869 bases of DNA from Escherichia coli. GTDB lineage: Bacteria; Pseudomonadota; Gammaproteobacteria; Enterobacterales; Enterobacteriaceae. The translations under genes and the position numbers were made by a program. Each line of letters starts with the position of its first letter. The first letter of the stretch is position 1. Positions 1-869 of this stretch are shown here, piece by piece. The notes beneath the pieces were generated by a model. The model was given only the letters and a program-made list of their open reading frames with translations. It did no database searches and was not told the DNA's origin. The stretch is taken from assembly GCF_003334815.1 (NCBI RefSeq), contig NZ_QOWO01000115.1. One strand, given 5' to 3'.

Positions 1-76
1 CGCGGGGAAGTTCAGGCCGCTACGGCCTCTGCAACCGGCTTAGCGTGCTTTATTTTCCGTTTTCTGAGACGACCCC
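1..76. mobile_element. Terminal segment of a Tn3-family transposon (Tn5393-like or Tn21-like) inserted into the colicin gene; the body of the element lies beyond the left window edge
   Basis: Terminal inverted repeat at 39-76 plus 38 bp of GC-rich interior sequence at 1-38 (minus-strand read CCGGTTGCAGAGGCCGTAGCGGCCTGAACTTCCCCGCG). If the element is Tn5393-like, I recall its inverted repeats being about 81 bp, in which case all of 1-76 would be repeat; this cannot be confirmed from the window alone. Confidence 0.75.
39..76 (-). repeat. 38-bp terminal inverted repeat of a Tn3-family transposon (Tn21/Tn5393 subgroup); outer end at position 76, transposon interior towards position 1
   Basis: Reverse complement of 39-76 is GGGGTCGTCTCAGAAAACGGAAAATAAAGCACGCTAAG. 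The GGGG outer terminus, the internal ACGGAAAA motif and the inner TAAG are hallmark features of Tn3-family inverted repeats. The repeat begins exactly where the colicin-matching sequence stops, and composition shifts from AT-rich colicin sequence to GC-rich sequence at 1-38. Confidence 0.85.
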
Positions 77-869
77 TATGATGGTTTCTGTTTTAACAAA
101 AAGAGGACGCCAGTTCTCTGTCCGGACAGCCTTACCAAACTCAGTGATCCAGTCAGCAAGACTTGTAAATTTTCCTGCATATCCCAGTCCCCGACTGAAT
201 CTGTTCAGATTAGACGATATATCAGACAGCTTCACAGACTCAAGGGCTGCGGCAATCGCTGCACGATCTTTTGCATTAATTTTTTTGTTAATGTCAGCCC
301 GGTACTTTTCATACGTTTTTAATGCCTCTTCAACATTACGTATTTTCTTCCCTTTAGCCTGCCCGGCCATCTCTCTGGCTAACTGCTCAGCTTTTGCACC
401 ATATTTTTCTGAAACTGATTTCAGGAACTCTGTTGTGAAATTAATTGCGTCTTTCGTTGCCTTCAGTTCATCCTGTTTTCTTTTCTCTTCCGCTATCTTC
501 TGATTGATGCCGGAAAGCTGGTTACGGATATTCTCTTTTTCCTTCAACAGGGCATTAAGAGCGTCATTTGCATGCTTTTGCTCATTTGTTCTGGCACTGA
601 GGTTATTTCTCGCCGAATTTACCGCAGATTCAGCAGAGGTGATTTTATTTCTGGCATCAAGCAATCTTTGCCGTAACTTATCCCATTCAGCAACTTCAGC
701 ATTATAAATTTTCTTGTCACCTTCCACATCCTCTGTCACCACCGGATTCTGGTCATTCAGAATATTGCGTTTATAGTCCAGACCGGAATGGCTCAGAAGA
801 TAATTCAGGTTTGCACGGTTATCGATGACTGCGCTGGTTGTGATTTTTATCGTACCGGCAAATCTCGGA
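50..869 (-). CDS. cia: Colicin Ia-type pore-forming colicin, partial: N-terminus lies beyond the right window edge; 3' end truncated by transposon insertion at 76/77, so the last 8 codons (GVVSENGK) and the TAA stop (50-52) come from the transposon inverted repeat. Probably a non-functional (pseudogenised) colicin.
   Basis: The minus-strand frame is open from 868 to the stop at 50-52 (my translation of 743-868 gives PRFAGTIKITTSAVDINRANLNYLLSHSGLDYKRNILNDQNPV with no stop, continuing into the supplied ORF). The 'M' at 740-742 in the ORF track is a GTG valine codon. The translation (...VTEDVEGDKKIYNAEVAEWDKLRQRLLDARNKITSAESAVNSARNNLSART...KDAINFTTEFLKSVSEKYGAKAEQLAREMAGQAKGKKIRNVEEALKTYEKYRADINKK...NWRPLFVKTETII) matches my recollection of colicin Ia and differs from colicin Ib at the positions where I recall those two diverging. 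Canonical colicin Ia continues ...ETIIAGNAATALVALVFSILTG... to ...KFWGI; here the frame instead reads GVVSENGK then stops. Confidence 0.88.
   Translation of the reverse strand, partial: PRFAGTIKITTSAVIDNRANLNYLLSHSGLDYKRNILNDQNPVVTEDVEGDKKIYNAEVAEWDKLRQRLLDARNKITSAESAVNSARNNLSARTNEQKHANDALNALLKEKENIRNQLSGINQKIAEEKRKQDELKATKDAINFTTEFLKSVSEKYGAKAEQLAREMAGQAKGKKIRNVEEALKTYEKYRADINKKINAKDRAAIAAALESVKLSDISSNLNRFSRGLGYAGKFTSLADWITEFGKAVRTENWRPLFVKTETIIGVVSENGK

What the first reader, a model, noticed from the sequence alone, without database searches (positions are those of the whole stretch)
77..81. Predicted 5-bp target-site duplication flanking the insertion
Tn3-family transposons generate 5-bp direct duplications of the target. 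The 5 bp immediately outside the inverted repeat are TATGA on the plus strand (TCATA on the colicin coding strand). If this was a simple transposition into cia, the same 5 bp should flank the other transposon end, followed by the remainder of cia. Absence would point to a transposon-mediated deletion or recombination that removed the 3' end of cia and the adjacent immunity gene.
Basis: inference. Interest (0 to 1): 0.4.

Follow-up and report, generated by a model that had tools for sequence, protein, structure and literature searches.

The report
Tn21 end inserted in colicin gene
The five bases TATGA do sit directly outside a perfect Tn21 transposon end that cuts the colicin Ia gene, but the window is a whole 869-base contig, so the predicted second copy at the other transposon end cannot be checked; this is an ordinary insertion junction.

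Summary
Window 39-76 is a complete 38-bp terminal inverted repeat, 38/38 identical to the tnpA-side repeat of Tn21 in plasmid R100. Window 2-43 is the end of tnpA. Window 77-869 is 100% identical to the colicin Ia gene (cia, minus strand, nt 933-1725). TATGA (77-81) is cia nt 1721-1725.

The insertion removes the last 51 residues of colicin Ia, including the hydrophobic stretch of the pore domain, and adds eight residues read from the repeat.

The duplication itself stays a prediction. The window is the entire contig QOWO01000115.1 of the E. coli draft assembly GCA_003334815.1, so the other transposon end is not on it. I found neither this junction nor the predicted opposite junction in PLSDB plasmids, complete E. 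coli genomes, species-representative genomes, metagenome contigs or viral contigs. No gene product bridging that junction is on record.

The 5-bp rule holds for this element: TATTA/TATTA in R100 and TGGCT/TGGCT in an IncI plasmid lineage. However, only 3 of 8 sampled plasmids still keep both ends.

Verdict: a real but textbook Tn3-family junction. The duplication is untested, at about 50% odds. Interest is low.

The parts
2..43 (+). Last 13 codons and TAG stop (41-43) of the Tn21-type transposase gene tnpA, reading outward towards cia
   Evidence: It translates to AGKFRPLRPLQPA*, identical to the C-terminus of R100 TnpA WP_001138064.1 (...GAGKFRPLRPLQPA*). The annotated CDS ends at the equivalent of window 43.
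39..76 (-). Complete 38-bp terminal inverted repeat of a Tn21-subgroup transposon (tnpA-side repeat, IRtnp), with its outer tip (GGGG) at base 76
   Evidence: It is 38/38 identical to the R100 Tn21 tnpA-end repeat. It differs from the mer-side repeat GGGGGCACCTCAG... at 3 positions.
77..81 (.). Target pentamer TATGA (cia nt 1721-1725, TCATA in the cia sense). This is the candidate for one copy of a 5-bp target-site duplication, but the duplication is not observed.
   Evidence: The intact S-type allele has one copy at this place, and the other common allele reads TATAA.
77..869 (-). Colicin Ia gene fragment, nt 933-1725 (codons 312-575), cut off by the insertion after Ile575
   Evidence: It is 100% identical to cia of NZ_CP024481.1 and 13 other plasmids. 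The product hits Pfam Colicin_Ia and Colicin.
50..76 (-). Eight codons read from the repeat (GVVSENGK) plus a TAA stop (50-52). They replace the last 51 residues of colicin Ia.
   Evidence: One search compared. The product is annotated as RCR40621.1 / WP_114476226.1, 'colicin-like pore-forming protein, partial'.
793..869 (.). Terminal 77 nt of the contig, ending next to the S337/T337 allele SNP at base 792. Probably an assembly-graph fork, not a biological feature.

Best explanation
Window 77-81 is the cia target pentamer at the junction between the colicin Ia gene of an IncI-type plasmid in E. coli and the tnpA-side end of a Tn21-subgroup (Tn3-family) transposon. Shown: the repeat is complete and joined to cia exactly at its tip. 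cia is otherwise unchanged, and its product loses 51 C-terminal residues, so this gene copy should no longer make an active pore-forming toxin. Inferred from established knowledge of Tn3-family transposition: TnpA joined the transposon's 3' ends to a 5-bp staggered cut at TCATA (cia nt 1721-1725). Replication through the element gave a cointegrate that TnpR resolved at res. At the moment of insertion, a second TATGA therefore lay at the mer-side repeat, followed by cia nt 1726-1881 and the immunity gene. Not known: whether that second copy still exists in the source genome. I put it at roughly even odds.
For: The repeat and tnpA end are identical to Tn21 of R100. The cia flank is 100% identical to intact cia right up to the repeat tip. 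Only one base is shared between the two partners, so this is not a homology-driven join. Tn21 shows matching 5-bp flanks in R100 (TATTA) and in the IncI-gamma/K1 lineage (TGGCT). The target is AT-rich like the R100 target. The contig stops exactly 76 nt inside Tn21. That fits more than one context for this transposon end in the genome, as expected after replicative transposition.
Against: The second pentamer was never seen. The predicted opposite junction is absent from PLSDB and complete E. coli genomes and from three large contig collections. No bridging ORF appears among 41 relatives of the predicted junction peptide. The predicted edge-cut product is not on record, although the equivalent edge-cut product at another Tn21 site is on record in 29 blocks. 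In the sample of 8 plasmids carrying this exact end, 5 had no opposite repeat within 30 kb.
Confidence: 0.5

Rival explanations
1. The insertion was a simple transposition that did create TATGA twice. Later rearrangement (IS26 or IS91 activity, or recombination between Tn21-type copies) removed or relocated the mer-side end, so the two pentamers no longer flank one element.
For: 5 of 8 sampled plasmids with the identical tnpA end lack an opposite repeat within 30 kb, and IS26 or IS91 copies lie inside the element. Within single insertion lineages, some records keep both ends and others have lost the mer end: R100 versus L018-L020, and pFORC44_1 versus L022. No opposite junction was found anywhere.
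Against: There is no direct evidence in this genome. The cia flank shows no further change, which suggests a recent event.
Confidence: 0.2
2. Intramolecular replicative transposition of a Tn21 copy already on the same IncI plasmid, giving an inversion. Two oppositely oriented Tn21 copies would bracket the inverted segment between the old site and cia. The two TATGA copies would then sit next to ends of different Tn21 copies.
For: A recurrent IncI-gamma/K1 Tn21 insertion (TGGCT site) lies only about 4.3-5 kb from the colicin gene, with its tnpA end facing it. In the window, the tnpA end faces cia nt 1725 running back towards the cia start. That is the orientation an inversion of this segment would give (inference). 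The contig break exactly at the Tn21 boundary fits two contexts for this end.
Against: Nothing shows that the source strain carries the TGGCT-site copy; the listing did not show this assembly. An insertion from another replicon gives the same local sequence.
Confidence: 0.13
3. Intramolecular transposition or adjacent deletion by the transposon removed the DNA between its old position and cia nt 1725, including the cia 3' end and the immunity gene. Only one TATGA would then exist.
For: This is a known outcome of replicative transposition within one molecule (established knowledge of the Tn3 family). No opposite junction or cia-remnant fusion is on record. A truncated colicin no longer requires immunity.
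Against: Starting from the common IncI arrangement, a deletion would put the tnpA end next to the cia 3' part, not the inverted 5' part seen here (inference). A deletion leaves one Tn copy, which fits less well with the contig breaking at the Tn21 boundary.
Confidence: 0.12
4. The junction is an assembly artefact that wrongly joins a Tn21 end to cia.
For: The contig is short and both its ends lie at likely graph forks.
Against: The two partners share only one base at the join, far below any assembly k-mer. The join falls exactly at the tip of a complete repeat, as biology predicts. The tool reports the identical contig in two samples.
Confidence: 0.03

Closest known systems
Tn21 in plasmid R100/NR1 (NC_002134.1)
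   Same: The last 76 nt are identical: the tnpA C-terminus, the TAG stop inside the repeat and the 38-bp tnpA-side repeat. The flanking pentamer is also AT-rich (TATTA versus TATGA).
   Different: In R100 both ends are visible and carry the same pentamer. Here only one end is visible. The insertion site differs (cia instead of the R100 resistance-determinant region). 76 nt cannot tell Tn21 itself from its many derivatives; more than 2,000 PLSDB records match at 99% or better.
Tn21-derived element at the TGGCT site of IncI-gamma/K1 plasmids (pFORC44_1 NZ_CP018625.1, E. albertii NZ_CP024285.1, S. Typhimurium NZ_CP027415.1)
   Same: The transposon end is the same, the plasmid type is the same (it also carries the colicin locus), and the insertion lies in the same variable region a few kb from the colicin gene.
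   Different: It is a different insertion point, beside the gene for WP_000068661.1 rather than inside cia. Matching TGGCT at both ends is seen in two of these three records.
Intact cia-immunity locus of IncI plasmids (e.g. NZ_CP024481.1)
   Same: 100% nucleotide identity over window 76-869. It is the same S337/Q350/T573 allele.
   Different: The intact locus continues with cia nt 1726-1881 and the convergent immunity gene. In the window, the Tn21 repeat replaces them.

Membership tests
Tn3-family transposon, Tn21 subgroup | 38-bp terminal inverted repeat beginning GGGG | tested here: met
   Window 39-76 is 38/38 identical to the tnpA-side repeat of Tn21 in R100.
Tn3-family transposon, Tn21 subgroup | tnpA reads outward and terminates inside the terminal repeat | tested here: met
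   Window 2-43 encodes AGKFRPLRPLQPA*, with the stop at 41-43 inside the repeat, identical to R100 TnpA. Only 13 codons are visible.
Tn3-family transposon, Tn21 subgroup | 5-bp direct duplication of the target at the two ends | tested here: inconclusive
   Only one end is on the 869-bp contig. The opposite junction was not found in any collection or protein set. The rule was verified for the same element elsewhere.
Tn3-family transposon, Tn21 subgroup | tnpR/res resolution module, and for Tn21 proper the mer operon and the In2 integron | not testable with these tools
   These lie outside the contig, and the other contigs of GCA_003334815.1 could not be retrieved.
Colicin Ia gene (cia) | Sequence identity to annotated cia, with Colicin_Ia receptor-binding and Colicin pore domains | tested here: met
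   100% identity over 794 nt to cia of 14 plasmids. Pfam PF11504 and PF01024 hit the product.
Colicin Ia gene (cia) | Complete 626-residue product with the C-terminal hydrophobic segment, and an adjacent immunity gene | tested here: not met
   The product ends at Ile575 plus 8 foreign residues, so 51 residues are missing. The immunity gene is not on the contig.

The most novel reading that the evidence does not exclude
The junction is one of two new junctions made by an intramolecular, inversion-type replicative transposition of the Tn21 copy that commonly sits about 5 kb from the colicin gene on IncI-gamma/K1 plasmids. The two TATGA copies would then lie beside two different, oppositely oriented Tn21 copies, and the plasmid segment between them would be flipped. 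This would be a caught-in-the-act example of Tn21 reshaping its own plasmid.
Probability: 0.13. Interest if true: 0.2.

Novelty: already known. Interest (0 to 1): 0.08.

Why it matters
It matters little beyond bookkeeping. The junction shows a mercury/multidrug-resistance transposon of the Tn21 group inactivating a colicin gene on an IncI-type plasmid, at a site not present in about 72,000 reference plasmids or 5,426 complete E. coli genomes. If the matching pentamer were found, it would date this as a clean, probably recent hop. If not, it would be one more example of the rearrangements that commonly erode Tn21 ends. Neither outcome changes what is known about Tn3-family transposition. The practical lesson is that the proposed check cannot be done on this contig and needs the whole assembly or the reads.

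Tried and rejected
1. I looked for a public record covering the whole window. The best matches in PLSDB and in complete E. coli genomes cover only 76-869, which is intact cia, so none holds the junction.

2. I scanned genome contigs, viral contigs and metagenome contigs with one degenerate pattern that matches both the window's junction and the predicted opposite junction. All three gave 0 hits. The pattern does match the window.

3. I BLASTed a synthetic opposite junction (cia 3' remnant + TATGA + IRmer + merR side). No record spans it in PLSDB or E. coli genomes; the best hits cover only the mer side.

4. I tried exact look-ups of predicted products. The full-length truncated colicin (583 aa) is not on record. 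The edge-cut junction-B product (78 aa) is not on record.

5. I ran a homology search with the predicted junction-B peptide. It gave 41 hits, none joining the repeat-encoded residues to ...IAGNAATALV.

6. I tried to reach neighbouring contigs of the source assembly through edge-cut products: Cia 1-336, the T-allele 312-626 fragment and the TGGCT-site product. All three exist, but only in other assemblies or in listings that do not show this one.

7. A literature search found no report of Tn21 in cia and no mention of the accession.

8. I rejected assembly artefact as the main explanation, because the two partners share only one base at the join. I also rejected my own first idea that the opposite-junction contig must fall below NCBI's 200-nt limit. 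That depends on an unverified second allele, and it fits poorly with the window contig spanning shared stretches of 82 to 428 nt.

Full report
**What is in the window**

Bases 39-76, read on the minus strand, are GGGGTCGTCTCAGAAAACGGAAAATAAAGCACGCTAAG. Window 1-76 is 76/76 identical to R100 (NC_002134.1) 19655-19730, the end of the Tn21 transposase gene and its terminal repeat. More than 2,000 plasmids hold the same 76 nt at 99% identity or better. Window 2-43 translates to AGKFRPLRPLQPA*, the exact C-terminus of the R100 transposase, with the TAG stop (41-43) inside the repeat. So the left 76 bases are the tnpA-side end of a Tn21-subgroup, Tn3-family transposon, with tnpA reading outward. Seventy-six bases cannot distinguish Tn21 itself from its derivatives.

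From base 76/77 to 869 the window is 100% identical to the colicin Ia gene of 14 IncI-type plasmids. In NZ_CP024481.1 the intact sequence reads GCCTGC-TATGA-TGGTTTCTG. The gene lies on the minus strand, and window 77-869 is cia nt 933-1725.

**The pentamer**

Base 76 (C) fits both partners, so the boundary rests on the repeat being its full 38 bp.

**Consequence for the gene**

The intact protein has 626 residues. Here the reading frame leaves cia after Ile575 and runs through the repeat for eight codons (GVVSENGK) to a TAA at 50-52. The 51 lost residues (AGNAATALVALVFSILTGSALGIIGYGLLMAVTGALIDESLVEKANKFWGI) contain the long hydrophobic stretch of the pore-forming domain. From general knowledge of pore-forming colicins, I infer that the product is inactive. 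This was not tested.

**Where the window comes from**

An exact look-up of the 272-residue product found one contig: QOWO01000115.1 of NCBI assembly GCA_003334815.1, 869 bp long, with the window as its reverse complement. The protein is RCR40621.1 / WP_114476226.1 from Escherichia coli. The window is therefore the entire contig.

**Does the element obey the 5-bp rule?**

Yes, wherever both ends can be seen. In R100 the mer-side repeat (GGGGGCACCTCAG...) is preceded by TATTA and the tnpA-side repeat is followed by TATTA. I sampled seven more complete plasmids that carry the identical tnpA end (analysed).

- pFORC44_1 and an E. albertii plasmid, both IncI-gamma/K1, have TGGCT at both ends.
- A Salmonella plasmid from the same insertion lineage has lost the mer end.
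- Three plasmids share the R100 flank but have no opposite repeat within 30 kb.
- pD90-1 has none either.

That makes three independent insertion lineages. Two of them have at least one record with matching pentamers, but only 3 of the 8 records still have both ends in place. The prediction is mechanistically sound, but the chance that it still holds in any given genome is only about even.

**Search for the opposite junction**

If the event was a simple insertion, the other junction should read ...GCATTGCCTGC-TATGA-GGGGGCACCTCAG....

- A degenerate pattern covering both this junction and the window's own junction found nothing in genome contigs, viral contigs or metagenome contigs. The pattern does match the window.
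- A synthetic version of the junction found no spanning match in PLSDB or in complete E. coli genomes.
- At that junction the cia frame would stay open through the repeat. Gene callers do record such read-out ORFs at other Tn21 sites (P0013, P0014, P0016, P0018, P0025, P0029, P0037). None of the 41 relatives of the predicted peptide joins the repeat to ...IAGNAATALV.
- The predicted edge-cut product is not on record.
- As a positive control, the analogous edge-cut product at the IncI TGGCT site is on record in 29 blocks.

This absence leans mildly against an assembled opposite junction, but it is weak. The window's own junction is also missing from all the DNA collections, so the source genome is simply not in them. 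A short or unannotated contig would also escape the protein route.

**Contig ends**

The contig holds exactly 76 nt of Tn21 on one side. On the other side it ends 77 nt beyond base 792.

Base 792 is the S337/T337 SNP that separates two common cia alleles. Many assemblies have a contig whose colicin product stops at residue 336, that is at base 792/793. One other assembly has a contig that starts at the same 77-mer and carries the T allele.

My inference is that the assembler used k=77 and both contig ends are graph forks. That would mean the read set has more than one context for the Tn21 tnpA end and probably a second cia-like allele. I could not verify this for the source assembly. It is also not fully tidy, because the window spans stretches of 82 to 428 nt that the two alleles share. 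The window is purely S-type. In the T allele the target pentamer would read TATAA.

**How it most likely arose**

The precise join at the tip of a complete repeat, with only one shared base, points to a transposase-made junction rather than recombination or misassembly.

By the established Tn3-family mechanism, TnpA makes a 5-bp staggered cut, a cointegrate forms, and TnpR resolves it at res. A second TATGA was therefore created at the mer-side end.

Three other histories fit the same 869 bases:

- later loss of the mer end, which is common in the sample;
- intramolecular inversion starting from the Tn21 copy that often sits 4.3-5 kb from the colicin gene on IncI-gamma/K1 plasmids, whose expected product matches the orientation seen in the window;
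- intramolecular deletion.

My estimates are 0.5 for an intact duplication, 0.2 for later loss, 0.13 for inversion, 0.12 for deletion and 0.03 for artefact.

**Comparison and novelty**

Every component is a known sequence at 100% identity, and the mechanism is textbook. The only new item is the insertion site, which is absent from 72,556 plasmids and 5,426 complete E. coli genomes. The literature search found no report of it. I rate the finding as ordinary and of low interest.

Noticed in passing
window 793-869: The contig ends exactly 77 nt beyond base 792, the S337/T337 SNP between two common cia alleles. Many other assemblies break at the same point. This suggests an assembly fork and a second cia-like allele in the source read set.
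   Followed up: partly
window 1-76: The contig holds exactly 76 nt of Tn21 and then stops. This fits a k=77 graph fork, meaning at least two different flanks for this Tn21 end in the genome, as expected after replicative transposition.
   Followed up: partly
window 80 and 85: Two allele SNPs lie at or next to the target. Base 80 is inside the pentamer (the T-type allele reads TATAA) and base 85 gives T573A. The window carries the S-type allele at all seven differing positions.
   Followed up: yes
window 45-503 (+) and 50-76 (-): Both strands have open frames that start or end inside the repeat. The 152-aa plus-strand ORF is antisense to cia and looks spurious. Read-out ORFs from Tn21 repeats are often annotated as hypothetical proteins in public records; for example, WP_000068661.1 starts 100 nt inside Tn21.
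   Followed up: partly
L023 1-6700 (NZ_CP027415.1); L024-L028: A recurrent Tn21-derived insertion in IncI-gamma/K1 plasmids (TGGCT site) lies only 4.3-5 kb from the colicin gene, with its tnpA end facing it. This region is a hot spot for resistance elements.
   Followed up: partly
L021 24677 and 29544 (NZ_CP024285.1): The E. albertii plasmid has two mer-side repeats in the same orientation about 4.9 kb apart, with a tet(A) module between them. Only the outer one carries the pentamer that matches the tnpA end.
   Followed up: no
L007 1-5126 (GCA_013040505.1): In this assembly a tetR/MFS efflux/EamA module lies 1.8-5 kb upstream of cia, where yagA and ProQ usually are. This is another rearrangement next to the colicin gene.
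   Followed up: no
L019 856 and L020 12541: A second, different Tn21-family repeat (GGGATCGCCTCAG...) occurs in the same orientation as the tnpA-side repeat in two R100-derived resistance regions. It is probably the end of another Tn21-family element.
   Followed up: no
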